The notes beneath the pieces were generated by a model. That model did not search any database. It was not told the origin of the DNA and saw only the letters and a list, made by a program, of their open reading frames with translations. Positions 30,767 through 53,138 of a DNA stretch of 64,000 nt are shown here, piece after piece; within the stretch, counting starts at the first letter, position 1; every line of letters begins with the position of its first letter. Origin of the DNA: a virus (lineage: Duplodnaviria > Caudoviricetes); IMG/VR virus record IMGVR_UViG_3300021400_000621, positions 1 through 64,000 of that record. The stretch is one strand, 5' to 3'. Position numbers and translations under genes: made by a program.

Positions 30767-31174
30767 GTGTATACAGTTCAATTCGGAGAATATACTCTTC
30801 CATTAGTAAGAGATTTATATAATTGGTTTGAAGATTATGTAGAAATAATGATTGACCCTGCGCAGGTTGATATGGAAACAGTTCATCAAATCTTATCTAG
30901 TGCTAACAATTTAGCTATTATTAAAATTTTTGATGATGATAACAAATTAGTAGCTATTTCAGACCATATTTTTACAGAGTATGATTCTATTAATCGTGTT
31001 CCAAAATATACTGTAGGTTATTATAATGAGTTTGGAGTAAGAGAAAAACAATATGTAGATGTTATTGTAGCACATATTAAAAAGCCAACTACAGAAACTA
31101 GTATGAGAAAAATAAAGTCTGATATGGAATATATTGCTATTATGTCTGATATTGATATGGATGAAGAAATATAA
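30767..31174 (+). CDS. Paralogue of tail-module gene 44179..44580
   Basis: GGAGG RBS, GTG start; C-terminus KSDMEYIAIMSDID vs TSDIEYIAIMSDIE. Confidence 0.65.
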   Translation: MYTVQFGEYTLPLVRDLYNWFEDYVEIMIDPAQVDMETVHQILSSANNLAIIKIFDDDNKLVAISDHIFTEYDSINRVPKYTVGYYNEFGVREKQYVDVIVAHIKKPTTETSMRKIKSDMEYIAIMSDIDMDEEI

Positions 31175-36318: not shown

Positions 36319-38565
36319 ATGTATATAGTAAAAAGAGATGGACGTAAAGTTCCTTTTAACCAAAACAAAATTATTGATGCAATTCTCAGCGCATTTATAG
36401 AAATTGATGGCCAGGTATCAGAGTATGCCCTCATCAAAGCTGGTAATATTGCAGACTATATTCTTGAATATGCAAAGAAAGCAGACCATCTGCTTGATGT
36501 AGAAGAAGTTCAAGATATGGTAGAAACAGGACTTATGTCCACTAAAAGAAAAGATGTAGCTAAAGCATATATTAGTTACAGACAGGAAAGAACAAAAGAA
36601 CGTAATAGACGTGATGAAGTACAGCAACTAGTTCGTGAGAAACTTTATGCTCTGAATGTACAGAATCAAAATGCTAATGTCGATGAGCACTCATTCGGCG
36701 GCCGCAAAGGAGAAGTAGATTCAGTAGTTATGAAAGATATTGCTTTAAGTGATTTAATTTCACCAAAAGCAGTAAAAAATCATGTTGAAAATAGAGTTTA
36801 TATTCATGACCTTGATGCTTATGCAGTAGGTATGCACAACTGCTTATCTGTTCCTTTCGATAAAATTCTTGCTAATGGATTTTTTGATGGAAAACAAACA
36901 GATGTTCGTGGCGCTAATTCTGTAAATACTGCATTTCAACTTGTAGCTGTTGTATTCCAGCTTCAATCACTTCAGCAATTTGGTGGAGTATCTGCTACAC
37001 ACCTAGATTGGACAATGGTTCCATATGTAAGAAAGTCATTCTATAAGCATTATGCTGATGGATGTAAGTACATAGGCAATCTTGACGAGGATAATTTAGA
37101 TAAAATTATCACATATGCAAGAAATGAACAGTTAAGTATTGATGATGACTATTTCAAAGAAGATAGTAAAATTTATCAATATGCTCTTGATATGACAAAG
37201 AAGGAAGTACATCAAGCTGTTGAAGGTATGTATCATAACCTAAACACTCTTCAGAGCAGAAGTGGTAATCAGCTTCCTTTTACAAGTATTAACTATGGTA
37301 CTTGTACACTTCCAGAAGGTAGAATGGTAACTGAAGCACTACTTACGGTATCTATGGAAGGTGTTGGTAAACTTGGTCTTACTCCTATTTTCCCTTGTGG
37401 TATATTCCAGTATTGGAAAGGTGTAAATGATAAACCAGGTACACCGAATTATGACCTGTTCAAGATGGCACTCAAAAGTACATCTATGAGATTATATCCA
37501 AACTATGCTAATGTAGACTGGTCAGGTAATGCTGGGTATGATCCTAAGGACCCGAAAACATACTTCTCAACAATGGGTTGCAGAACTGCCAATGGATGGG
37601 ATATTAATGGATTCGGTCAACTAAAGGATGGTAGAGGAAATATCTGTCCAGTTACTATAATCATGCCAACTATTGCTATGGAAGCAAAAGAAGAAGCAGA
37701 AAATAGTGATGGTGTTGACATAATTGATGTATTTATGGAAAAGTTAGATAACGCAATTCATGATGCTAAAGATATTCTGATTGAAAGATTCGATTGGATT
37801 TGCAGTCAAGATGCGGCAAGTGCTAAATTTATGTGGATGAATGGCACTATGGAGGGATATGACCCTGAAGAAGGACCAAAGTCTGCACTTAAGCATGGTA
37901 CACTTGCTCTTGGTCAATTAGGATTAGCAGAAACTCTTCAAATCCTCATAGGCTGCGACCACACAGACGAGAGAGGAATGGAACTTGCAAAGCGTATAGA
38001 ACAACTGTTTAAAGACCGTTGTGCTCAGTTCAAAGAAGAGGAAAGACTTAACTTCGGTGTATATTATACTCCAGCCGAGAACCTCTGCTATACTGCGATG
38101 AAGAAGTTTAAGGCTAAGTATGGGGAGATTCCAAATGTCAGTGATAGAGAATATTTCACAAATTCGATGCATGTACCAGTCTGGAAAGAAATATCTCCAT
38201 TTGACAAAATTGATATTGAATCACAGCTTACTGGTTACAGTAGTGCTGGTTGTATTACTTATGTAGAACTCGACGGAGCAGTACAGCACAACTTAGATGC
38301 TTTAGAAACATTAGTAAATTATGCTATGGATAAGGATATTCCTTATTTTGCTATTAATATTCCAAATGACCAGTGCTTAGATTGCGGCTGGACTGGAGAA
38401 ATTAATGAAACATGCCCTAAGTGCGGTGGTAATCATATTCAAAGACTGAGAAGAGTTACAGGTTATTTAACTGGTAATTATACAACTGCATTTAATCTGG
38501 GTAAACAAGCTGAAGTTAAGGATAGATATAAGCATAGCAACAGACTAGTAAATTGGAGGCATTAA
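36319..38565 (+). CDS. nrdD: Anaerobic (class III) ribonucleoside-triphosphate reductase with ATP cone
   Basis: ATP cone KRDG, HNC, QFGG, GRGN, CLDC...CPKC, RRVTGYL glycyl-radical loop. Confidence 0.93.
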   Translation: MYIVKRDGRKVPFNQNKIIDAILSAFIEIDGQVSEYALIKAGNIADYILEYAKKADHLLDVEEVQDMVETGLMSTKRKDVAKAYISYRQERTKERNRRDEVQQLVREKLYALNVQNQNANVDEHSFGGRKGEVDSVVMKDIALSDLISPKAVKNHVENRVYIHDLDAYAVGMHNCLSVPFDKILANGFFDGKQTDVRGANSVNTAFQLVAVVFQLQSLQQFGGVSATHLDWTMVPYVRKSFYKHYADGCKYIGNLDEDNLDKIITYARNEQLSIDDDYFKEDSKIYQYALDMTKKEVHQAVEGMYHNLNTLQSRSGNQLPFTSINYGTCTLPEGRMVTEALLTVSMEGVGKLGLTPIFPCGIFQYWKGVNDKPGTPNYDLFKMALKSTSMRLYPNYANVDWSGNAGYDPKDPKTYFSTMGCRTANGWDINGFGQLKDGRGNICPVTIIMPTIAMEAKEEAENSDGVDIIDVFMEKLDNAIHDAKDILIERFDWICSQDAASAKFMWMNGTMEGYDPEEGPKSALKHGTLALGQLGLAETLQILIGCDHTDERGMELAKRIEQLFKDRCAQFKEEERLNFGVYYTPAENLCYTAMKKFKAKYGEIPNVSDREYFTNSMHVPVWKEISPFDKIDIESQLTGYSSAGCITYVELDGAVQHNLDALETLVNYAMDKDIPYFAINIPNDQCLDCGWTGEINETCPKCGGNHIQRLRRVTGYLTGNYTTAFNLGKQAEVKDRYKHSNRLVNWRH

Positions 38566-39757: not shown

Positions 39758-39996
39758 TGGCACATCTAATTAAAACAACAGAAGTATATAGAGTAGAGAC
39801 CGAGGACGAAGCTAAGAAATTTATTGAAGAACAGAAACAAAACGATTCCTATGAGATGATAAAATATTCTTCAGAATATAAAATCAAAAAGGCAAAAGGT
39901 GAAATAGAAGATGAATGGTTTAGAGTAACCCTTGTAAAGAATTTTGATGACGAAAAAGACCCTATAGGAAGTGTGAAGATTAGTTATGAAGATTAA
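39757..39996 (+). CDS. Hypothetical protein
   Basis: AAGGAG RBS, coupled. Confidence 0.6.
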   Translation: MAHLIKTTEVYRVETEDEAKKFIEEQKQNDSYEMIKYSSEYKIKKAKGEIEDEWFRVTLVKNFDDEKDPIGSVKISYED

Positions 39997-40414
39997 TATT
40001 AAGAAATTAGAACCAGAAGCTATAATACCTACAAAGGGAAGTGATGCGGCAGCAGGTGTGGACCTGTATGCACCTAGAGCTTTGGCGATTCACCCTGGAT
40101 CTAATGGAATTATTAATACTGGCCTTGCTATAGAAATACCTGATGGGTACTTTGGCGCTATATTTGCAAGATCCGGTATGGCTACCCGTAAGGGACTCCG
40201 CCCGGCTAACTGTGTAGGAGTTATTGACTCTGATTATAGAGGGGAAATTATAGTGGTTTTACATAATGATACTGATATAATTAGACCTGTTCAAGAAGGT
40301 GATAGAATTGCACAACTTGTTATTTTACCTTACGAGAAAATTGAGTTTAGTGAGGTGGAAGAACTTACTGACACAGAGCGCGCTGACGGCGGCTTCGGTA
40401 GTACTGGTAATTAG
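39986..40414 (+). CDS. dut: Trimeric dUTPase
   Basis: AAGVDL, RSG, GVIDSDYRGE, RIAQL, R..GGFGSTG. Confidence 0.93.
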   Translation: MKINIKKLEPEAIIPTKGSDAAAGVDLYAPRALAIHPGSNGIINTGLAIEIPDGYFGAIFARSGMATRKGLRPANCVGVIDSDYRGEIIVVLHNDTDIIRPVQEGDRIAQLVILPYEKIEFSEVEELTDTERADGGFGSTGN

Positions 40415-40453: not shown

Positions 40454-41449
40454 TTATCCGAATATTCCTCGATAACTATTTATCATAGAACTAACATCAC
40501 TCTTTGCATATATTCTAGTTGTATTAATATTTTCATGCCCAAGATAATCCTGTACCTGTTCCAATGGCATGCCATGTCTAAGTAAATATGTTGCTGTAGT
40601 ATGTCTAATCAAATGAGGATATACTCTTCTACCTATGTCTGCTCTTTCACCTAACTTGCGAATTATCTTTTCAAGTGCTTCTTTTTTAATTCTATGATAT
40701 GGTCGCCTATCACTAACAAACAGTGCTGGGTCATCATCCTCTCTAATAGCTAGATATTCCTGGATGGCCATCACCGCCGCCGCATTTAACAAGACTACCC
40801 TTTCTTTATTGCCTTTTCCAGTTACCTTTAATATTCCACGATTAAAATCTATATCTTTAACATCAATATTTACCACCTCGCTTACTCTACATCCCGTCGC
40901 AAAGAAGAACTCAAGTAATGCACGTTCCTTTGGCTTAACACATGCATACCGCAATTTTTCTAGTTCCATATCGGTCAGAGGTTCCCGCACATTTTTCTTA
41001 TATTTAATTGGCTCTATAGTTGCCATAGGGTTTGATTTAATCCTGCCGCAATCCGTCATATATCTAAAGAATCCATTTAGGATTACTCTCATTGTATCTT
41101 TTCTTCTCTTGCTTATATGTCTACGGCGTTCATAATCATCTAAAAAAGTAATTACATCCCATTCCGTTACATCTGGTAGTGCTTTTGGTATAGCTAAACA
41201 AAATGCTTTAAGTGTTAATGAGTATTGCCGCAGCGTTCCTTCAGATAGTCCCTTTGCTTTCTTTCTAACTAGATACTGTAATACTTCTGAGTAACAGTTA
41301 TCTACAGTACATAGGCTAGTTTCCTGTGGAGAAAAATTAAAATTATTTATTACTTCTTCTATTGCTTTATCTATTATAAGTAAATCTGTTGATTCAAAAT
41401 TATTAGATAATGATTTGAGTATTTCATCTCTTATTTCTCTTGTAGTCAT
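40454..41449 (-). CDS. XerC/D-like tyrosine recombinase (putative shufflon invertase)
   Basis: N-terminal SAM-like domain; TGCRVSE, GKGNKER, HLIRH, LGH, TTRIY catalytic residues all present. Confidence 0.92.
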   Translation of the reverse strand: MTTREIRDEILKSLSNNFESTDLLIIDKAIEEVINNFNFSPQETSLCTVDNCYSEVLQYLVRKKAKGLSEGTLRQYSLTLKAFCLAIPKALPDVTEWDVITFLDDYERRRHISKRRKDTMRVILNGFFRYMTDCGRIKSNPMATIEPIKYKKNVREPLTDMELEKLRYACVKPKERALLEFFFATGCRVSEVVNIDVKDIDFNRGILKVTGKGNKERVVLLNAAAVMAIQEYLAIREDDDPALFVSDRRPYHRIKKEALEKIIRKLGERADIGRRVYPHLIRHTTATYLLRHGMPLEQVQDYLGHENINTTRIYAKSDVSSMINSYRGIFG

Positions 41450-41491
41450 AATTATTCTCCTTTTGTAAAAATTTAATTTCTTAAAAAAATA

Positions 41492-41520
41492 ATTATAACA
41501 TTTTATTTATAAAAATTCAA
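41492..41520 (-). promoter_or_regulatory. Sigma-A-type promoter of the recombinase
   Basis: TTGAAT-17 nt-TATAAT with TG on the minus strand, just outside the first inversion site. Confidence 0.7.
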
Positions 41521-41537
41521 TTGTATATTAAACAATA

Positions 41538-41553
41538 GTTAAGTAAATAATAA
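41538..41553 (+). repeat. Inversion site S1
   Basis: GTTAAGTAAATAATAA; perfect 16-bp inverted repeat with S2. Confidence 0.8.
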
Positions 41554-41905
41554 TTTTATAGCTAATCCTATTACTTTTTATGGTGCAAATGGAACAACTC
41601 CTGCTATTAATGCTTGGTATTTAGGTATGATAGTTTATATCTGTGGATTTGTTGAAAATGTAAGTACTGCAGCAAGCTCTGAAAAAATTATTGCAACTGT
41701 TAATCATTATAATACCATACCACATCCTAGGACTGTTATTAGAGTTCCAGGCAGATATGGAACAGCATACTATCCTGGAACTAATTGTTATACAGCAGTT
41801 ACAAGTCGAGACGGCCGTATAGATATAGTGATGACAAGTTCAACAAGCACTTCTAATGTGCAAGTTTATTTTGGAAGTGTTGTTTATTATGGTAGCATTG
41901 CCTAA
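41543..41905 (+). other. Silent tail-fibre tip cassette C1 (120 aa)
   Basis: TAA then VNNNFIANPITFYGANG...VYYGSIA; no RBS/start; extends tracked ORF 41627..41905. Confidence 0.75.
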
Positions 41906-41915
41906 AATAATCATT

Positions 41916-42248
41916 TTAATCAAAACGTAAGACTAATGTAAGACGTATATAATTTGTACCAGTATTATTAGCACAAATTGTATAAAAACGGTTTTGTTCC
42001 CCTGCTTGCGCATACCATAATGTCCCTCTACTACCAGCCATAGTATCATAGGTTTTTATGTCACAATATTGTACACCTGCAGGCTCCATTGGTCCAATAG
42101 CTAAACCATAAACACCTGCATTAGAATATGTGGCATATATAGAATATATTCCTGTATAGGGCCATGTAATAGAATATCTACTGCCCCATGAAGTGGTAGC
42201 AGTATATGAATACTGTGATGTCCATGTTGTTGTAAACTTATTATTTAC
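41916..42248 (-). other. Silent tail-fibre tip cassette C2 (110 aa, absent from ORF track)
   Basis: TAA then VNNKFTTTWTSQYSYTATTSWGSRYSITWPYTG...IRLTLVLRFD stop; open frame without a 5' start. Confidence 0.75.
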
Positions 42249-42253
42249 TTAAC
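42238..42253 (-). repeat. Inversion site S2
   Basis: Reverse complement GTTAAGTAAATAATAA. Confidence 0.8.
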
Positions 42254-42345
42254 CCACTTATTTAATTAACTTGTATAATTATACATATATAGCATCTTTG
42301 TTACTGCGGCAGGACCGCCGCCAAGACTATTAACTTAAATTGTCC

Positions 42346-42374
42346 TTGACTCTTGAAAAAATTTTTGCTACACT
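42346..42374 (+). promoter_or_regulatory. Sigma-A-type promoter of the RuvC-like gene
   Basis: TTGACT-17 nt-TACACT with TG. Confidence 0.6.
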
Positions 42375-42410
42375 GTAGTTAGATAGAATAAACAAAAAGA
42401 GGTAAATAAA

Positions 42411-42926
42411 ATGACAATTATGTCTTTAGATATATCAACTACATCAACAGGTATAGCAATATTTGATAATAATAAACTATTACTTGTAGAATGTATCGCA
42501 CCGACTGGCAATGTATGGAAGCGTATTCGCAAGATAACAAATAGAATAGAAGAATTGGTGGAACAATATAAGCCGCAGGCTATTATAGCAGAAGAACCAG
42601 AACCTGCATTTGTAAAGAATAATATAGATGTATATCGCAAATTAACAATAGCACATGGTGATATAACTATCATGTTAGATGAACATAAACTAGAAATGCA
42701 GCTGTGTACAAGTGCTCATTGGAGAAAAATGGTTGGAATTAAAACAGGTAGGGGGATAACAAGAGCTATGTTGAAACCAAAAGACATAGAAAAAGCGAAG
42801 GAATTATTCCCTAAGTTTGCGGCGGAGGTAAAACAGAATGATGACAAAGCCGATGCTATTTTAATTGGATATGCTTATTATCTTGAGCATGCAAAGAAAG
42901 AAGAATTAGAGTATAACTGGGAGTGA
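42411..42926 (+). CDS. RuvC-like Holliday junction resolvase
   Basis: LDISTTSTG, IIAEE, WRK..G, DD.ADAILIG RNase H-fold acidic residues. Confidence 0.85.
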   Translation: MTIMSLDISTTSTGIAIFDNNKLLLVECIAPTGNVWKRIRKITNRIEELVEQYKPQAIIAEEPEPAFVKNNIDVYRKLTIAHGDITIMLDEHKLEMQLCTSAHWRKMVGIKTGRGITRAMLKPKDIEKAKELFPKFAAEVKQNDDKADAILIGYAYYLEHAKKEELEYNWE

Positions 42927-42939
42927 CCTCCGGTAGGAA

Positions 42940-43016
42940 ACACGCGCGGGCGTAGGTGAATGACATCTTGTAATATCTAGAATAAGAAGTATGGAAGACA
43001 CGCCGCCGCGTGTCTT
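42940..43016. repeat. GC-stem hairpin element E1
   Basis: ACACGCGCGGGCG...CGCCGCCGCGTGT arms around TAGGTGA-N4-CATCTT-N4-TATCTAGA; alternative local stem AAGACACG/CGTGTCTT. Confidence 0.6.
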
Positions 43017-43040
43017 ATTTTAGTGAATTAAATGAACTTC

Positions 43041-43056
43041 GTTAGGTAAATAATAA
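43041..43056 (+). repeat. Inversion site S3
   Basis: GTTAGGTAAATAATAA. Confidence 0.78.
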
Positions 43057-43564
43057 TTCACAGACAATGAAAGAAAAATTATTTCTAGATGATTTTGCGT
43101 ATTTTTCTTTAAACAACGGAGTTACAATGCATCCAGCAGAAGGTGCAACAATTAGTAATAGTTCTAGCAATCCTGGAGGCATAACATATACTAGCTCTTA
43201 TGAAAATAATTTTATACATATTTATAACACAGGTGGAATACGTAATATGACTTCAAAAAATTTAGTGTTATTAGTGGCAATGCATATTAGCTATATAAAC
43301 TCAAGTTCTGCGGGAGATTATAGTATTGGAACATGGATTAAAAGACACACAGCAAGTGAAAGTACTTATCAAAATTATAAATATTTAGGTTTTACTTCCT
43401 CTAATACAGGCGTATATTGTATTGTTGCTGATACTGTCTATGTATCTATACCACCAGGAGGATATATAGCTATATTAGTTTATAATCAAACAAGTGGTAA
43501 AACTATAAAAACAGCTTCAAGTGGATGGGTAGATTTTATACCTGTATCTATGTATAATGAATAA
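43046..43564 (+). other. Silent tail-fibre tip cassette C3 (172 aa)
   Basis: TAG then VNNNSQT in frame with tracked ORF 43067..43564; beta-rich. Confidence 0.72.
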
Positions 43565-43567
43565 AAT

Positions 43568-43888
43568 TTAAAGAGCACTAGAAATAGTACCTAATATATA
43601 TCCGGCATTAACAGTTACAGCAATTTTTGCAGTTAAAGATTGACTAGAATTACGTATAGATATAGCAACTCCTTCTGAAGTAAAATTAGTACGATAAACA
43701 TAGCACCAACTACAATACTGACCTTGATTGCTAGCATTATTAATATCCCAATACCAAAGCATTCTACTATAGCTAGGATTGAGTGGTACAGGTACAGTAT
43801 ATATACCGATACCATTTGGAGCCAATGTTTGATTATCAAATAAGTAGGCATGGAATCTTATTAATTCTGGCGTAAAATTATTATTTAC
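43568..43888 (-). other. Silent tail-fibre tip cassette C4 (106 aa)
   Basis: VNNNFTPELIRFHAYLFDNQT in frame with tracked ORF 43568..43825. Confidence 0.72.
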
Positions 43889-43913
43889 TTTCCTATCATT
43901 TACTTAACTATTG
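43878..43913 (-). repeat. Inversion site S4 with tandem partial copy
   Basis: Minus strand CAATAGTTAAGTAAATGATAGGAAAGTAAATAATAA; the first 16 nt are identical to the S1 flank. Confidence 0.72.
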
Positions 43914-43958
43914 ATTTTCGTAAAAGATTTTTACAACCATTCGAGGCGAAGCCAAAAA

Positions 43959-43993
43959 AACGGGTGTTAAGCATTTTTAGCTTAACACCCGTT
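43959..43993 (-). terminator. Intrinsic terminator after xkdX-like gene
   Basis: AACGGGTGTTAAGC-7 nt-GCTTAACACCCGTT, with a minus-strand U tract. Confidence 0.85.
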
Positions 43994-44014
43994 AATCTAT
44001 CAATTATAAAATTA

Positions 44015-44164
44015 CTATGCTTCGTAAGGCTTTCCTGTAATTTCTGTAAACTCTGCTTCAGTAATTCCGAGATGTTTACCAACAACGGCTCTTACTCTCT
44101 CAATACTCCAGAGTCCTTTATCATAGAAACCTTTAATCTTTTCAAAATTTTTGCTATGATTCAT
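44015..44164 (-). CDS. XkdX-family small tail protein (49 aa, not in track)
   Basis: AAGGAGG RBS; MNHSKNFEKIKGFYDKGLWSIERVRAVVGKHLGITEAEFTEITGKPYEA. Confidence 0.8.
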   Translation of the reverse strand: MNHSKNFEKIKGFYDKGLWSIERVRAVVGKHLGITEAEFTEITGKPYEA

Positions 44165-44178
44165 AACATTCCTCCTTG

Positions 44179-44580
44179 TTACAGTTCAATATCAGACATA
44201 ATAGCAATGTACTCAATATCAGATGTGTTCTTTGCTGTCTGTTCTGCAAGACCTGGTTTAGCAAGTTCTACAAGAACAACATCACATTTGCTTTCTGTTG
44301 ATTCGCCTGTCTCTTCATCTACGCTTGTATCATATACATAGTCAAAGATTTTTTCAAGCTTTGCAACTACGCTATATCCAGTTACAATACGTAGAGTTTC
44401 TGTTTCAGTTTCATTTTTAATCTCAATACGAGCGATATTTGCGGCGTCACTAACAACGTCCTCAATCTCGCCCAGTTGGATTCCGTCAGCTTTGATCAGA
44501 GCGCGGAATACATCACTGTGAACGCTGAATCCACTTGGAACAACGTCATATTTAAAGTTTCCGAAAACAATTTTATTCAT
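44179..44580 (-). CDS. Tail-fibre-associated protein preceding XkdX
   Basis: C-terminal SDIEYIAIMSDIEL, typical of the gene upstream of xkdX. Confidence 0.65.
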   Translation of the reverse strand: MNKIVFGNFKYDVVPSGFSVHSDVFRALIKADGIQLGEIEDVVSDAANIARIEIKNETETETLRIVTGYSVVAKLEKIFDYVYDTSVDEETGESTESKCDVVLVELAKPGLAEQTAKNTSDIEYIAIMSDIEL

Positions 44581-44595
44581 ATTAAATCTCTCCTT

Positions 44596-44665
44596 TGCGG
44601 CGGCCTAGGTGACCACCATCTTTGTATATCTAGATAAAGCGGGATGTTTTTAACGACCTCCCGCA
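44596..44665. repeat. GC-stem hairpin element E2
   Basis: TGCGGCGG...TAGGTGA-N4-CATCTT-N4-TATCTAGATA...GGATGTTTTTAACG...CCCGCA, abutting the RBS of 44580. Confidence 0.65.
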
Positions 44666-44716
44666 ATTACAAACTTTTTATATATAAGTTTAAAAACGTA
44701 TCTATCTATTATTCCA

Positions 44717-45115
44717 CTAAATAATAAGACTCTCGACTACAATCATATTCCTTATGAATCCTTGGTATGGGGAAGTAGTTATTACTATACTGTGGGAAGT
44801 GCTTCAGTAAAGCAGGTTTACAATTTATTTTTAATTAATTTTATATTAACTATATCCCGTGAAATAGTAGATTTTTCTACCGTACAATTACTTAGATTAC
44901 CAACACACAGATTAAGTGGACCACAATTTTCTACTGTAATGGCTTATAGTAGTAGCAGTGGAACTGCTCCTAGTGTTTATCCATATGGTGGATCTGAACT
45001 GGCAGCAGGAGGCAGGACTTATTTAGCTCAATCTATAATGTATCATGTATATTCTGGATATAAACTTGGAATGATGTGTATTATAGTTGGAGAGCCTGGA
45101 TACGGATGGGATTAA
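44717..45115 (+). other. Silent cassette C5 (132 aa) starting at site S5 (core 44718..44727)
   Basis: LNNKTLDYNHIPYES in frame with tracked ORF 44762..45115; upstream in-frame stop, no ATG. Confidence 0.7.
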
Positions 45116-45127
45116 TTAATTTTATAT

Positions 45128-45955
45128 CTAGTCTTCAATCTGTTTATATAGAAATCTAACAGTAACTTTTTCTGTTCTTAGTGCAGAAGAATACATTCTG
45201 ATTGCGATTCCTCCACCTGCAATGTAATCACTATAATCCATAAACCAATTATTATATCTTGGATTAGATGATGTAACTGATACCATAAGCGGTGTGATAC
45301 CACCACTTACACCTAACTGACTTGGAGTTACAATTACCACTCTTACTGTATTTGCTTGAAGTGTATAATTTTCTGTAAACATCGCTAGTCTTACAGTATT
45401 AATAGAAAAGTTATTATTTAATGTACTTAATTGCTGAGCGATAGTACTTGTCGCGTCCGGTAGATCCGAAGCACTAGCATAACCGACTACATTAGCAAAA
45501 TAATCATTCAAAGCAGATTGGGAATATGTCTTATAGTCACTAGGACTTGCAACATCCTCAACACTAGATAAAAATACGTCTTTAAACTTGTTGTCTACTC
45601 TTTTTCTAAACCTATTGAATTTTGTCCACATACTAGATGTAACTTCTGTTGCATTAGTAACACGGACACTGGTGTCTAATAGTTCAGTTGATGTTTCACT
45701 ACTAGACGAATCAAAATTCTGTATACCACTTGAAACTGTGGTGTTACCAATGTTACCACCTGATGCAGTAACCTTGGTGTTGATCTGACTCTGTATTGGT
45801 GCGGCGGCGCTTGGTATATCGCCGAGCACAGTCTGGAGATCTTTAGTACTAGAGTCAGACATTTCTACATCTACATTTGAAGCATCAGCACCAATGGGTG
45901 TTTCTGTACCCCATATGCCGTCCTCAAACTGAGATACTGATTTAATTTTTGACAT
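45128..45955 (-). CDS. Tail fibre 2: constant N-terminus fused to cassette C6 at site S6 (core 45411..45420)
   Basis: Paralogue of 46469..47461 up to QLSTLNNN, unrelated afterwards. Confidence 0.8.
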   Translation of the reverse strand: MSKIKSVSQFEDGIWGTETPIGADASNVDVEMSDSSTKDLQTVLGDIPSAAAPIQSQINTKVTASGGNIGNTTVSSGIQNFDSSSSETSTELLDTSVRVTNATEVTSSMWTKFNRFRKRVDNKFKDVFLSSVEDVASPSDYKTYSQSALNDYFANVVGYASASDLPDATSTIAQQLSTLNNNFSINTVRLAMFTENYTLQANTVRVVIVTPSQLGVSGGITPLMVSVTSSNPRYNNWFMDYSDYIAGGGIAIRMYSSALRTEKVTVRFLYKQIED

Positions 45956-45977
45956 AATTTAATCTCTCCTTTTGTCT

Positions 45978-46030
45978 CGCGGCGGTCCCGCCGCAGGATA
46001 TGTAAGCGGTGCCCGGTGAAAGACACCGCG
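45978..46030. repeat. GC-rich hairpin E5 upstream of tail fibre 2 RBS
   Basis: GCGGCGG-TC-CCGCCGC plus GCGGTG...CACCGC; lacks the CTAGAT core. Confidence 0.5.
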
Positions 46031-46070
46031 GAATTGGTTTCATTAAAATTGGGTTTCATCTGTTATTTTA

Positions 46071-46472
46071 CTAAATAATAAAACTTCTAATGCTACAACC
46101 TCTAAAGCAGGATTAATGTCTGCTGCTGATAAAACTAAACTTAATGTAGTAAATTCTGATTATAAAACTGCTTATAAAGAAGTATACATTGCAGCTAATA
46201 ATTCTGGAAATTTAGCACAATTATCATTAACAGCTGGCATATGGCTAATAATAGGATTTGTAGATTTTAATGCTACTGTAAATCAATATAATGTATCCAT
46301 AACTGGACCTAATAATTTTTTACATACTGTTAGAGCTTGGGGAGCGAATGGAGGCGGAACTAATAATGTAATAGTACATAGAGTGACAGCAGGAACCTTT
46401 ACATTAGTTTGTTGGACACCAACTGCTGCAACTGCCAGAGGTACTATGTATGCTATTAAATTAGCTAGCTAA
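46071..46472 (+). other. Silent cassette C7 (133 aa) starting at site S7 (core 46072..46081)
   Basis: LNNKTSNATTSKAGLMSAADKTKL fibre motif in frame with tracked ORF 46116..46472. Confidence 0.75.
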
Positions 46473-47461
46473 TTATATATATAAAAACCACTTGCTTTTA
46501 ACCATCCCCAATAATCACTGGCACTTGTAGTTTTGCCACTTTTAGTGACAAAAAATACTCTACTAGCTCCAGAGGTATTTGTTAGTCTAAATTGTGGACT
46601 TGTAGTAGAATAAACATCTTCTATAATTCCTCTACCGGAATCATGATAAGCAGTCCCCAAACTAGTAGTAGTTACTAACATTGTACATTCTCCTATAGTA
46701 ATACCTCCAGTTGCAATAGAAGAATATGATGGTTGAGGGTTAGGCATTGTGCAATTAGCATATTCTCCAGCTTCTGAAACATGTGCTTTAATAGTTATGC
46801 TCCATAATATTAATTTTGCTGCCGGAAACCAAATATAATTACCATAACGATAGTCATAACTTGCTGACATTGAACGATTTTTTGTCCCGGCCATTAAAAC
46901 AGGAACATATGTACTATTAATCGGTATATTATTATTTAATGTACTTAATTGGTCTGCTACTGAACCAACAGTAGCTACGTCCGCATCTGTTTTATATCCA
47001 ATTACATCAGCAAAATAACTATTCAATGCTGCTTGAGAGTACGTTTTAGTATCACTTGGCTCAAGCACATCCTCAACAGAACTAATTAAAAAGTTACTAA
47101 ATTTATTTGAAACCCTTTTTCTAAACATATTAAATTTTGACCACATAGTAGTCTGACTTTCACCTGCCGCAACTACTACGTCTGTGCCGTCAATATCCTC
47201 TGATGTGTCTGTCTCTGAAGCAGGATCAAGGACACTGACCACAGTATCTTTTATATCTCCACCGCTGGCATTTACTTTACCAGTCAGTTGTGTTTTCATA
47301 CTAGGATCGGAAACTGAAACATTACCAAGTACTGATTGTAAATCTTTAGTAGAAGTAGAATCACTTAAAGCTACATCTACATTACTTGCATCAGCACCAA
47401 TAGGAGTTCCATTTGCCCAGCTTCCGTTATTATATTCATAAACTTCTTTAATTTTTGGCAT
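46469..47461 (-). CDS. Tail fibre 1: constant N-terminus fused to cassette C8 at site S8 (core 46929..46938)
   Basis: Shares a 23-bp junction CAATTAAGTACATTAAATAATAA with tail fibre 2. Confidence 0.8.
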   Translation of the reverse strand: MPKIKEVYEYNNGSWANGTPIGADASNVDVALSDSTSTKDLQSVLGNVSVSDPSMKTQLTGKVNASGGDIKDTVVSVLDPASETDTSEDIDGTDVVVAAGESQTTMWSKFNMFRKRVSNKFSNFLISSVEDVLEPSDTKTYSQAALNSYFADVIGYKTDADVATVGSVADQLSTLNNNIPINSTYVPVLMAGTKNRSMSASYDYRYGNYIWFPAAKLILWSITIKAHVSEAGEYANCTMPNPQPSYSSIATGGITIGECTMLVTTTSLGTAYHDSGRGIIEDVYSTTSPQFRLTNTSGASRVFFVTKSGKTTSASDYWGWLKASGFYIYN

Positions 47462-47473
47462 TTAATGGCCTCC

Positions 47474-48727
47474 TCATCTTAATTCTAAGTAACCGTTTTC
47501 ACCTGCATGGGCTTTAGCACCAGTCACATCAGTTGCATCATAATTAGGTAATAATTCATCATCAGTAAATACATCAGTAGCAGTACTAATCTTACTAACG
47601 TCCCAAAGACTTGAAATATAAATATGCTCTAAACTAGAACAACCACTAAATAAATCATTAGCACTAACTGAAGTTGCATCAAATTTAAATTCCCAACTAC
47701 GTAAATCTAACGATACCAGACTAGTACAATCAGCAAACATACCTTCAACAGTGGTAGCTGCAATAGGCATTATTGTAGCTAAACTTAATGCGGTAAGTGC
47801 ATTACAACCACTAAACATTTGATACATATCTGCAACTCTGCTTGTATTAAAACTTGTTAAATCAAAAGAAGTACAAGCACGGCAAGTATAAAACATTCGT
47901 CTCATTGTAGTTACTTTAGATGTATCAAAACTGGTTAAACTCAGTGATGTTAAACTAGTACATAAGTTAAACATTAATGCCATTGATGTAGCATTACTAG
48001 TAATAAAATTACCTAATGTTAATGTAGCTAAATCATAACATTCACTAAACATACCTGCAAATGTAATTACATTACTTGTATCAAACATAGATACATCAAG
48101 AGAGGCTAAAGTCATACAAGAATCAAACATATATGACATATTTGTTACTGCGGCGGTGTTGAAATTTGTTAACACACAATTATATAGTGCAGTACATCCA
48201 CTAAACATATATGACATATCAGTTACTGCGGCGGTATTATGAGCCGTCATGATAACTGAACCCAGTGCTGCACAACCTTTAAACATATGTGCAAAACTAG
48301 TACATTTTGATGTATCTAATCTATCTAAATTATTAATGGCAGTCAGATTCTCACATCCATCAAACCAATATGCTGTAGATACTGGTTGAATCTCACCCAT
48401 AAAGTTTACAGTTGTAATATTGGCAACACGACTAGTCCATGGGATGTCCGTAGATGCGGCCGCCGCAATACTTTCAACTCCTTTATAATAAGTCTTCGAA
48501 CCAACGACTTGACCATTATTATATTTATTCTTTTCTAATCTAATAAAATTTAAACTTGTATCTGAAGTATCATAATAAGCATATGCTTCAGTATCTACAT
48601 ATGCATCATCACTTATCTTAAAACAAGTAGTACCATCTGATTTGGTAGTATAATCATTCAAAGAACCTTTATAATAGTGTCTATTTAAAAGTTCATTTAC
48701 TTTTGCAATATCTGAACTTATACTCAT
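47474..48727 (-). CDS. BspA/DUF285-type leucine-rich-repeat protein
   Basis: About nine 25-26 aa repeats of the form (F/L)(D/N)TS.VT.M..MF..C..L..L. Confidence 0.85.
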   Translation of the reverse strand: MSISSDIAKVNELLNRHYYKGSLNDYTTKSDGTTCFKISDDAYVDTEAYAYYDTSDTSLNFIRLEKNKYNNGQVVGSKTYYKGVESIAAAASTDIPWTSRVANITTVNFMGEIQPVSTAYWFDGCENLTAINNLDRLDTSKCTSFAHMFKGCAALGSVIMTAHNTAAVTDMSYMFSGCTALYNCVLTNFNTAAVTNMSYMFDSCMTLASLDVSMFDTSNVITFAGMFSECYDLATLTLGNFITSNATSMALMFNLCTSLTSLSLTSFDTSKVTTMRRMFYTCRACTSFDLTSFNTSRVADMYQMFSGCNALTALSLATIMPIAATTVEGMFADCTSLVSLDLRSWEFKFDATSVSANDLFSGCSSLEHIYISSLWDVSKISTATDVFTDDELLPNYDATDVTGAKAHAGENGYLELR

Positions 48728-52361: not shown

Positions 52362-53138
52362 TTAAACCGTATAAGCGTAATCTAAAATGAAATCTTGTAT
52401 CTTAGTAGTATCATCTCCATTAGGAGCCATTACACCAACAAAACTAATTTGAGTTCCATTATTGATTTCATATACTCCACTACGACCCAATCTGATTGGT
52501 TCTCTATTAACACAGAATAATGCTCCTGGTCTAGATTGTATTCCAATTTTATCTACTGCCGCAACACCAACATCTAAAATTGAATTAACAACACATACAT
52601 CACCATTATCATCAAAATCTAATGTATTATCTGTCGCACCTGGACCATTATATACAAAAGGATTTCTAGCCTGCACAATATAGTCATAACCAATTCTTCC
52701 TAATTTGAAGCATAAATAGTTATAATCTTCATTTGGAGTAAATACTATAGTAAACTCTTTAGTTCTATTATTTACTCCTTCTTGATAAGGGCCTAGATTT
52801 AATGATTTCTCGATAGTCTGAGTTTTTTCACCGGTATGGCTAGCTTCTCTAGCAGTTCCTCTTTCCTTATACAAAACAAGAGAAAAATCAAAATTACTAA
52901 TTTCACCACCATAAGCTGGCTGTAAATTAGAATCTTGTCTAGTCGCAGAGAATCTTAAATAATAAGTAGTTTTTGCTTTGAACTGCGCTGGATTCGCGGC
53001 CGTGCCTAAGTGCAGCGCATAGTCTTCAAAAACTTGACCATTATCATACCAACTAATATAAACTGAAGAACTATACTTAGATAGCGGAGAAAGATATGTT
53101 CCACTTGCATTTTTTCTTATTTGTCCAATTTGTAACAT
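52362..53138 (-). CDS. Tail/baseplate structural protein
   Basis: KIGIQSRPG...INREPIRLGRSGVYE motif; in tail operon. Confidence 0.55.
   Translation of the reverse strand: MLQIGQIRKNASGTYLSPLSKYSSSVYISWYDNGQVFEDYALHLGTAANPAQFKAKTTYYLRFSATRQDSNLQPAYGGEISNFDFSLVLYKERGTAREASHTGEKTQTIEKSLNLGPYQEGVNNRTKEFTIVFTPNEDYNYLCFKLGRIGYDYIVQARNPFVYNGPGATDNTLDFDDNGDVCVVNSILDVGVAAVDKIGIQSRPGALFCVNREPIRLGRSGVYEINNGTQISFVGVMAPNGDDTTKIQDFILDYAYTV

What the first reader, a model, noticed from the sequence alone, without database searches (positions are those of the whole stretch)
40454..47461. Eight-cassette tail-fibre shufflon driven by an adjacent tyrosine recombinase
Seen: TAAATAATAA at 41544(+), 42238(-), 43047(+), 43878(-), 44718(+), 45411(-), 46072(+), 46929(-). 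Each is in the same frame ((V/L)-N-N-(N/K)) at the 5' end of a 100-170 aa beta-rich, mostly mutually dissimilar ORF. They form four head-to-head pairs whose stops nearly touch. Six cassettes have no RBS or start of their own; two are fused to tail-fibre N-termini at QLSTLNNN. An intact XerD-like recombinase with its own sigma-A promoter lies just outside S1. Known: R64 Rci shufflons and Mu/P1 fibre inversions swap C-terminal specificity domains. Inference: inversion between any + and - core installs a new receptor-binding tip, giving host-range switching. Caveat: the 10-mer also occurs by chance at 52956 and 53289, so real sites need extra context.
Basis: partly seen in the sequence, partly recalled or inferred. 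Interest (0 to 1): 0.92.

Follow-up and report, generated by a model that had tools for sequence, protein, structure and literature searches.

The report
Two-fibre tail-tip shufflon in gut phage
A roughly 130-kb human-gut phage stores eight interchangeable tips for two tail-fibre genes and swaps them by flipping DNA at an exact 10-base site; near-identical relatives already show such swaps, and the principle is known from other phages.

Summary
TAAATAATAA occurs eight times, in strictly alternating orientation, between 41544 and 46929 (11 in the window, 1.6 expected). Each copy opens a stop-free frame of 97-172 codons in the same phase.

Two frames are the C-termini of paralogous fibre genes. 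Six are silent. An Xer-like tyrosine recombinase with its catalytic residues lies 95 bp outside S1.

The shufflon reading is supported by comparison with other assemblies:
- Homology to phages 95-98% identical stops exactly at the cores.
- Two assemblies 99.99% identical differ by two inversions, with left and right arms re-assorted at the 10-mer.
- A second assembly of this strain carries a hybrid S7-left/C5 junction.
- A distant relative has all four sites changed to TAAATAGTAA.
- 97 homologues fall into 14 N-terminal but 75 C-terminal clusters.

No reads could be mapped.

The kind is known (Rin, Min, BV01-like shufflons), and this scan has noted many on other DNA. This is a two-acceptor variant with passenger genes.

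The parts
40454..41449 (-). Xer-like tyrosine recombinase (331 aa), the presumed shufflon invertase
   Evidence: Pfam Phage_integrase 1e-40. PDB XerC-like 4a8e 7e-31 and XerA 5hxy, with R, K, HxxR, H and Y aligned. NCBIfam XerA NF040815 at 229 bits, cut-off 220. It is the only tyrosine recombinase in the 89-kb record, which holds no serine recombinase.
41492..41520 (-). promoter-like site upstream of the recombinase (TTGAAT-17-TATAAT with TG), on the constant side of S1
   Evidence: a consensus match only, and such sites are not enriched here
41544..41553 (+). S1 core
41543..41905 (+). cassette C1 (120 aa, silent; stop codon directly before the core)
   Evidence: 56% identical to the C-terminus of full-length fibre P0056
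41916..42248 (-). cassette C2 (110 aa, silent)
42238..42247 (-). S2 core
42248..43046 (+). passenger segment S2-S3: RuvC-like resolvase gene 42411-42926 with promoter-like site 42346-42374 and hairpin terminator 42995-43016
   Evidence: Pfam RuvC 3.8e-5 and phrog_159 1.7e-19. Promoter and terminator scan. The gene lies opposite to the fibre genes here and co-directional with them in L010/L017.
43047..43056 (+). S3 core
43046..43564 (+). cassette C3 (172 aa, silent)
   Evidence: 33-47% identical to fibre C-termini or cassettes in relatives
43568..43888 (-). cassette C4 (106 aa, silent)
43878..43887 (-). S4 core (a near-copy of the site lies 20 nt upstream in its left arm)
43888..44717 (-). passenger segment S4-S5: 133-aa protein 44179-44580, XkdX-family protein 44015-44164 and strong terminator 43959-43993
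   Evidence: Pfam Phage_XkdX 6e-15; phrog_12931 1.5e-6; terminator
44718..44727 (+). S5 core
44717..45115 (+). cassette C5 (132 aa, silent)
   Evidence: joined to the S7 left arm in L015
45128..45955 (-). fibre gene 1 (275 aa): constant N1 module 45422-45955 plus cassette C6 45128-45421; S6 core at 45411-45420
   Evidence: the N1 segment 45421-46071, with RBS and leader, is itself bounded by S6 and S7
46072..46081 (+). S7 core
46071..46472 (+). cassette C7 (133 aa, silent)
   Evidence: its first 20-30 residues match a motif shared with many proteins that carry PF11133
46469..47461 (-). fibre gene 2 (330 aa): constant N2 module 46940-47461 plus cassette C8 46469-46939; S8 core at 46929-46938
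   Evidence: 40 homologues with N-termini at least 85% identical to each other carry 30 different C-terminal clusters

Best explanation
This is a multiple-inversion shufflon for phage receptor-binding tips. Eight sites share an invariant 10-bp crossover core, a weakly conserved arm on the constant side and no conservation on the cassette side. They bound four convergent cassette pairs. The pairs alternate with three constant segments: the RuvC unit, the XkdX pair, and the 5' module of fibre 1. Two left arms, the 3' ends of the N1 and N2 coding modules, are expression ports. The other six are silent ports, four of them closed by a stop codon at or near the core. The adjacent Xer-like tyrosine recombinase recombines any two inverted cores and so exchanges what follows each left arm. 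Successive inversions can bring any of the eight tips onto either fibre, in principle 8 x 7 two-fibre states. Shown: the anatomy, the common phase, exchange exactly at the cores in relatives and in a second assembly of this strain, and a concerted core change in a distant relative. Inferred: that this enzyme is the catalyst, that the proteins are tail fibres, and that swapping changes host range.
For: Sites, phase and open frames.

Site logo from 63 10-mer occurrences in nine assemblies (a few are chance copies inside genes): invariant 10-mer, partial left arm, nothing on the cassette side.

Homology to genomes 95-98% identical ends at the cores on both sides of every pair, and the cassettes between are unrelated.

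L024 and L025 are 99.99% identical over 16.2 kb and come from different samples. One cassette pair is inverted and moved, and its two junctions are exact re-assortments of left and right arms at the 10-mer. This equals two inversions.

The k141 contig L025 ends in exactly 141 nt shared with the other configuration. The Logan contig L026 ends 20 nt past a core. Both fit assembly-graph branches at the sites.

L015 is the same strain as the window (99.94-99.99%). It has a junction of the S7 left arm with C5.

One cassette is silent and distal in L010 but is the expressed end of fibre 1 in L017, at 96% identity and inverted. The C8/C7 pair follows N2 here and N1 in L016.

Of 97 homologues there are 14 N-terminal and 75 C-terminal clusters, and 9 C-terminal clusters occur on both N1- and N2-type starts.

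L030 (recombinase 72% identical) has four sites, all with TAAATAGTAA.

The recombinase carries its catalytic residues. Genomes with it have 8-10 sites; three with no recombinase within about 10 kb have four.

Shared cassettes give dN/dS of 0.2-0.66.
Against: The only other assembly of this strain has the same order as the window plus a duplication, so no inversion was seen in this strain.

Three relatives keep four cores and intact silent cassettes with no recombinase within about 10 kb. The enzyme may lie elsewhere, or exchange may not depend on it.

In every genome seen, the N1 and XkdX segments are in one orientation. Many arrangements are therefore absent or selected against.

The fibre identity rests on position, the XkdX neighbour and Pfam hits on some relatives' cassettes. 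The window's own fibres match no family, and the AlphaFold model was unusable.

The dN/dS values rest on few substitutions.
Confidence: 0.8

Rival explanations
1. The cores are real exchange points, but the adjacent recombinase does not act on them. It would be the phage's integrase or an Xer-type dimer resolvase. Cassettes would then move by another enzyme (encoded in the unseen third of the genome, or by the host) or by recombination between co-infecting phages.
For: Three relatives keep four cores and silent cassettes with no recombinase within about 10 kb. The enzyme scores as XerA/XerC/XerD. Its nearest cultured homologues, in Clostridium phage phiCp-D (which also encodes ParM) and Terrisporobacter phage TPELB_ph1, lie after the last tail gene with no room for silent cassettes. 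The record is 68% complete.
Against: The recombinase always abuts the outermost site, and it co-occurs with the extra distal cassette pairs. There is no serine recombinase and no second tyrosine recombinase in 89 kb. A 10-bp core is too short for homologous recombination. The core changes in concert in the lineage whose recombinase has diverged to 72%.
Confidence: 0.1
2. The array is a frozen relic in this strain. It was shaped by past shuffling and by exchange between phages, but it no longer inverts.
For: The window and L015 have the same order of all eight cassettes. No alternative fusion of this strain's cassettes was found among stored proteins.
Against: All eight cores are exact and all six silent frames are open. 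The recombinase is intact. L015 holds a recombinant S7-left/C5 junction. Sister lineages rearranged at 99.99% identity.
Confidence: 0.07
3. The 10-mer is only the DNA image of a conserved LNN(N/K) linker in an A+T-rich genome. The silent frames are then decayed gene duplicates.
For: The genome is 34% G+C. The 10-mer also occurs three times elsewhere in the window, at chance level.
Against: Synonymous positions are invariant in all the sites compared. Silent sites lie in non-coding flanks or behind stop codons. Orientation alternates strictly. Junctions re-assort exactly at the core.
Confidence: 0.02

Closest known systems
Rin shufflon of Bifidobacterium breve/longum prophages (Mavrich et al. 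2018, PMC6109161)
   Same: A phage-encoded tyrosine recombinase sits at the edge of the array. A short asymmetric repeat (11 bp there, 10 bp here) precedes every start-less, mutually dissimilar C-terminal cassette of a receptor-binding protein. Inversions are seen by comparing genomes, with breakpoints in the repeats.
   Different: Rin has one constant N-terminal region and five variable ends in a small temperate actinophage. Here two paralogous acceptor genes share eight tips. Constant segments with unrelated genes alternate with the cassette pairs. The carrier is a ~130-kb distant SPbeta-like phage of an unknown host from human-gut samples. Orthology of the recombinases was not tested.
Tail-fibre shufflon of BV01-like Phocaeicola vulgatus phages (2026 preprint, PMC13596623)
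   Same: Directional 10-bp motifs with short conserved extensions separate non-homologous cassettes beside a recombinase. Cassette inversion changes the fibre's C-terminus.
   Different: That system has three cassettes and six isoforms of one gene in 1.7 kb, and its configurations were counted in reads. Here there are eight cassettes, two genes and 5.4 kb with passenger genes, and read counts are lacking.
R64 / IncI shufflon (Rci, sfx sites, pilV)
   Same: Multiple inversions are made by a tyrosine recombinase. Segments hold convergent cassette pairs. Sites have a conserved core plus only one conserved arm (established knowledge; for this locus).
   Different: The target there is a conjugative-pilus adhesin on a plasmid, with one acceptor and every segment a cassette segment. 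The site sequence is unrelated. The enzyme here scores as XerA-like.
Gin (Mu), Cin (P1), Min (p15B) tail-fibre inversion systems
   Same: Phage DNA inversion exchanges the C-terminal specificity part of a tail fibre. Min has six crossover sites.
   Different: Those use serine invertases with a Fis-dependent enhancer. No serine recombinase is present here, and the neighbouring enzyme is tyrosine-type.
Type I restriction-modification hsdS shufflons (for example in Mycoplasma pulmonis and Bacteroides fragilis)
   Same: Tyrosine-recombinase inversion systems in which more than one acceptor gene draws on a shared pool of half-gene cassettes (own knowledge; see also PMC9881135).
   Different: The target is a DNA-specificity subunit, not a virion protein. 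Sites and enzymes are unrelated in sequence as far as tested.

Membership tests
Phage receptor-binding-protein shufflon of the Rin type (tyrosine invertase) | Phage-encoded tyrosine recombinase flanking the cassette array | tested here: met
   Recombinase at 40454-41449(-), 95 bp from S1; Pfam 1e-40; catalytic residues aligned to XerA/XerC-like structures
Phage receptor-binding-protein shufflon of the Rin type (tyrosine invertase) | Short asymmetric repeat at the 5' end of every variable cassette | tested here: met
   Eight exact 10-mers in alternating orientation; conservation extends only to the constant side
Phage receptor-binding-protein shufflon of the Rin type (tyrosine invertase) | Start-less, mutually dissimilar C-terminal cassettes in phase with a constant N-terminal coding region | tested here: met
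   All eight frames share the core phase and six lack a start at the core. The difference is two constant regions, 49% identical.
Phage receptor-binding-protein shufflon of the Rin type (tyrosine invertase) | Inversions with breakpoints inside the repeats, seen between genomes or within a population | tested here: met
   Met in relatives (L024 against L025; L010 against L017). For this strain there is only a hybrid junction in L015. No reads were mapped.
Phage receptor-binding-protein shufflon of the Rin type (tyrosine invertase) | Recombinase orthologous to Rin | not tested
R64-type Rci shufflon | Rci-family recombinase acting on 19-bp sfx sites in pilV | tested here: not met
   The target is a phage fibre gene, the site sequence is unrelated, and the best family models are XerA/XerD/XerC. 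Only the logic of one conserved arm plus a core is alike.
Gin/Cin/Min serine-invertase systems | Serine (resolvase-family) invertase | tested here: not met
   No PF00239 match in the 89-kb record; the adjacent enzyme is tyrosine-type
Xer chromosome or plasmid dimer-resolution recombinases | Sequence membership of the XerA/XerC/XerD group | tested here: met
   NF040815 at 229 bits against a cut-off of 220. The XerD and XerC models score far below their cut-offs.
Xer chromosome or plasmid dimer-resolution recombinases | A single dif-like site with two inverted binding arms around a 6-8 bp spacer | tested here: not met
   There are eight sites with one partly conserved arm and no second arm

The most novel reading that the evidence does not exclude
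The system may do more than flip DNA within one genome. Phages 95-98% identical share almost none of their cassettes (47 clusters among 67 cassettes in 8 genomes), and every replacement ends at a core. A tandem duplication bounded by directly repeated cores exists in this strain. The recombinase may therefore also recombine sites on different molecules during co-infection. That would make the array an integron-like exchange market for receptor-binding tips, feeding two fibres at once.
Probability: 0.25. Interest if true: 0.8.

Novelty: new variant of a known kind. Interest (0 to 1): 0.55.

Why it matters
Tail-tip shufflons let a phage hedge its bets on host surface variation. This one couples two fibres to one pool of tips. 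It shows that essential genes can ride inside invertible DNA if they carry their own signals. Its lineage offers a natural series for study: 4 to 10 sites, recombinase present or absent, and a changed core. That series makes questions of site choice, core homology and cassette turnover directly testable. The large pool of tips on a nearly constant stalk is also a resource for studying how receptor-binding domains are recognised and exchanged in gut Firmicutes phages, whose hosts are mostly unknown.

Tried and rejected
- IMG/VR scans gave only 30-33% recombinase relatives or nothing. This held for the recombinase, fibre 2 and the 23-nt port sequence.
- blastn against cultured phages found nothing.
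- A scan of species genomes with the fibre profile found no prophage, so the host stays unknown.
- A search for full-length fibres ending in C7 found only a shared fibre motif, and no N1/N2+C7 fusion.
- The exact look-up of the C3 ORF found nothing. The look-up of fibre 2 returned only the L015 contig.
- AlphaFold2 of fibre 2 with 36 sequences gave pLDDT 38.8, so no fold search was made.
- A profile search of the PDB and the ESM Atlas look-up were uninformative.
- Pfam at E up to 1 found nothing credible in any cassette or N-terminal module.
- The records behind L017, L020 and L021 could not be searched for a recombinase elsewhere.
- The idea that tail-adjacent Xer-like genes in phiCp-D and TPELB_ph1 mark similar shufflons was dropped, because no silent cassettes fit there.
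- Contig ends at other sites (L014, L018, L019, L023) did not fit a simple k-mer rule.
Full report
**Observation**

The 10-mer TAAATAATAA occurs 11 times in the window against 1.6 expected. Eight copies lie between 41544 and 46929, and their orientation alternates strictly. In the surrounding 10 kb there are 8 exact copies and only 2 one-mismatch copies.

Read as nTA-AAT-AAT-AAn, each core opens a stop-free frame of 97-172 codons. A shuffled window gives such a run with P about 8.5e-4.

The frames form four convergent pairs: their 5' ends face outward and their stops are 0-12 nt apart. C6 and C8 are the C-termini of two paralogous genes, 45128-45955(-) and 46469-47461(-). These are 49% identical up to QLSTLNNN and unrelated after it.

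The other six frames have no start at the core. S1-S3 have an in-frame stop directly before it; S4 and S7 have one a few codons upstream.

The stray copies at 52956, 53289 and 58284 lack the left-arm pattern and a following frame. They fit chance.

**Surroundings**

The record is an 89-kb, about 68% complete virus contig. It is a distant relative of the SPbeta group; its YorL-type DNA polymerase is 40% identical.

Replication genes run on the + strand up to the dUTPase gene at 39986-40414. Tail genes run on the - strand from 64000 down to the fibres. The array sits where the two arms meet.

The gene at 40454-41449(-) is a two-domain Xer-type tyrosine recombinase with its catalytic residues in place. 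It is the only recombinase found in the record.

- S2-S3 holds a RuvC-like resolvase gene with its own promoter-like site and terminator.
- S4-S5 holds a 133-aa gene, an XkdX-family gene and the terminator of the late arm.
- S6-S7 holds the whole 5' module of fibre 1, with its leader.

There are thus two expression ports and six silent ports.

**Is it a working recombination system?**

A protein search with fibre 2 returned 103 relatives. Forty have N-termini at least 85% identical to each other, yet they carry 30 different C-terminal clusters. Overall, 97 proteins fall into 14 N-terminal and 75 C-terminal clusters, and 9 C-terminal clusters occur on both N1- and N2-type starts.

I fetched the loci of nine further assemblies.

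- **Breakpoints at the cores.** The constant parts are 95-98% identical to the window, and homology stops at the cores on both sides of each pair.
- **Site anatomy.** A logo of 63 10-mer occurrences, a few of them chance copies inside genes, shows an invariant 10-mer. There is a partly conserved arm on the constant side and nothing on the cassette side.
- **Two inversions between near-identical genomes.** L024 and L025 come from different samples and are 99.99% identical over 16.2 kb. One cassette pair is inverted and moved. Both new junctions are exact re-assortments of left and right arms at the 10-mer, which two inversions explain.
- **Contig ends.** The MEGAHIT k141 contig L025 ends in exactly 141 nt shared with the other configuration. 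The Logan contig L026 ends 20 nt past a core. Assuming Logan's k of 31 (my own knowledge), both are what assembly-graph branches at the sites would produce. This suggests mixed configurations within those samples, but it is an inference from assembler behaviour.
- **This strain.** L015 is 99.94-99.99% identical to the window and has the same cassette order. It also carries a tandem duplication of 1354 bp whose junction is the S7 left arm joined to C5. That junction must exist in the reads whether or not the duplication is real. It can arise by exchange between directly repeated sites or by two inversions.
- **Cassettes at different ports.** One cassette is silent and distal in L010 but forms the expressed end of fibre 1 in L017, at 96% identity and inverted. 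The C8/C7 pair follows N2 here and N1 in L016.
- **Orientation of the RuvC segment.** It lies opposite to the fibre genes in the window, L012, L016, L024 and L030. It runs in their direction in L010, L017, L020 and L021.
- **Concerted core change.** In L030 the fibre is 44% and the recombinase 72% identical to those here. All four sites read TAAATAGTAA and none reads TAAATAATAA. This is the behaviour expected when strand exchange needs identical cores.
- **Selection on cassettes.** Cassettes shared between genomes give dN/dS of 0.2-0.66 on few substitutions.

**The enzyme**

Genomes that carry the recombinase have 8-10 sites, with extra cassette pairs around the RuvC gene (L030 has four). L017, L020 and L021 have no recombinase in the 10 kb seen, and the slot beside the dUTPase gene is empty. 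They keep only the four proximal sites.

This links the enzyme to the extended array. It also shows that cores and silent cassettes can persist without a neighbouring enzyme. Catalysis is therefore inferred, not shown.

**What the proteins are**

The fibre label rests on four things:
- their place at the end of the tail module;
- the XkdX neighbour;
- a fibre-type motif at the start of C7;
- precomputed Pfam hits (Gp10_C, BclA_C) on some relatives' cassettes or neighbouring genes.

The window's own fibres and cassettes match no family. The structure prediction failed.

**Comparison with known systems**

Phage tail-tip shufflons are known:
- Gin, Cin and Min use serine invertases.
- Rin of bifidobacterial prophages uses a tyrosine recombinase and an 11-bp repeat (PMC6109161).
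- A BV01-like Phocaeicola phage has a 10-bp motif and six isoforms (PMC13596623).

This scan has itself noted many such loci on other DNA.

The locus works like Rin and like the R64 shufflon, with one conserved arm plus a core. It is not a member of the Rci or serine-invertase families.

What is unusual:
- two acceptor genes draw on one pool;
- housekeeping and constant modules alternate with cassette pairs inside invertible DNA;
- cassettes turn over very fast between near-identical phages;
- the lineage supplies a natural series of variants (4-10 sites, recombinase present or absent, altered core).

**Verdict**

This is a new variant of a known kind. Confidence in the mechanism is about 0.8. 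Interest is moderate, because the principle is established and common, although the comparative evidence for activity is unusually direct.

Noticed in passing
window 52956(+), 53289(+), 58284(-): Three further exact copies of the 10-mer lie in or beside tail genes. They have no left-arm pattern and no following frame. Two are conserved at the same places in relatives (L010 4164, 4497). They fit chance and are probably not substrates.
   Followed up: partly
window 42944-42993, 44597-44646, 58213-58270; also 45979-45996 and 63313-63330: A repeated G+C-rich element of about 50 nt contains GCGGCGG and ATATCTAGA. On the - strand, a CCGCCGC stem lies directly before the RBS of several late genes: the 133-aa gene, fibre 1, the 950-aa gene and the 1394-aa gene. 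This may be a late-gene leader or regulatory hairpin. In the RuvC segment the element points antisense to the gene.
   Followed up: partly
window 30767-31174(+): A full-length paralogue (26% identity, E 1e-12, same C-terminal IEYIAIMSDI motif) of the 133-aa gene that precedes XkdX. It lies in the replication arm between the helicase and polymerase genes.
   Followed up: partly
L015 10536-12583 (same strain as the window): A tandem duplication of the 1354-bp unit from S7 to S5 (fibre 1 module plus the C6/C5 pair). It gives two identical fibre 1 genes. It is either a real product of exchange between directly repeated sites or an assembler path through a mixed population.
   Followed up: partly
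L010 15832-16670; L024 16062-17467; L012 14951-15928: In some relatives a cassette pair lies between the RuvC promoter region and the RuvC coding sequence. Inversion could therefore connect or disconnect that gene from its promoter. In the window, promoter and gene lie in one segment.
   Followed up: no
L017 18527-20741; L020 18682-20837: In relatives the anaerobic ribonucleotide reductase gene (intact here at 36319-38565) is split by an HNH (L017) or GIY-YIG (L020) endonuclease gene. This is probably a homing-endonuclease or intron insertion.
   Followed up: no
L027 (Clostridium phage phiCp-D 21639-22616); L028 (Terrisporobacter phage TPELB_ph1 17645-18640): The nearest cultured homologues of the recombinase (33-35% identity) also lie directly after the last tail gene and before the holin. 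They have no space for silent cassettes. phiCp-D also encodes ParM, so a dimer-resolution role is possible there.
   Followed up: partly
window 47474-48727(-): A 417-aa DUF285 (BspA-like repeat) protein is encoded directly upstream of the two fibre genes and is conserved in all relatives. It may be a further adhesin or fibre component.
   Followed up: no
L010 13177-15784; L017 13397-16004; L020, L021 and L024 likewise: Most relatives carry six extra genes between XkdX and RuvC, one with a weak BclA_C match. These are absent from the window, L012 and L016, where a cassette pair follows XkdX directly.
   Followed up: no
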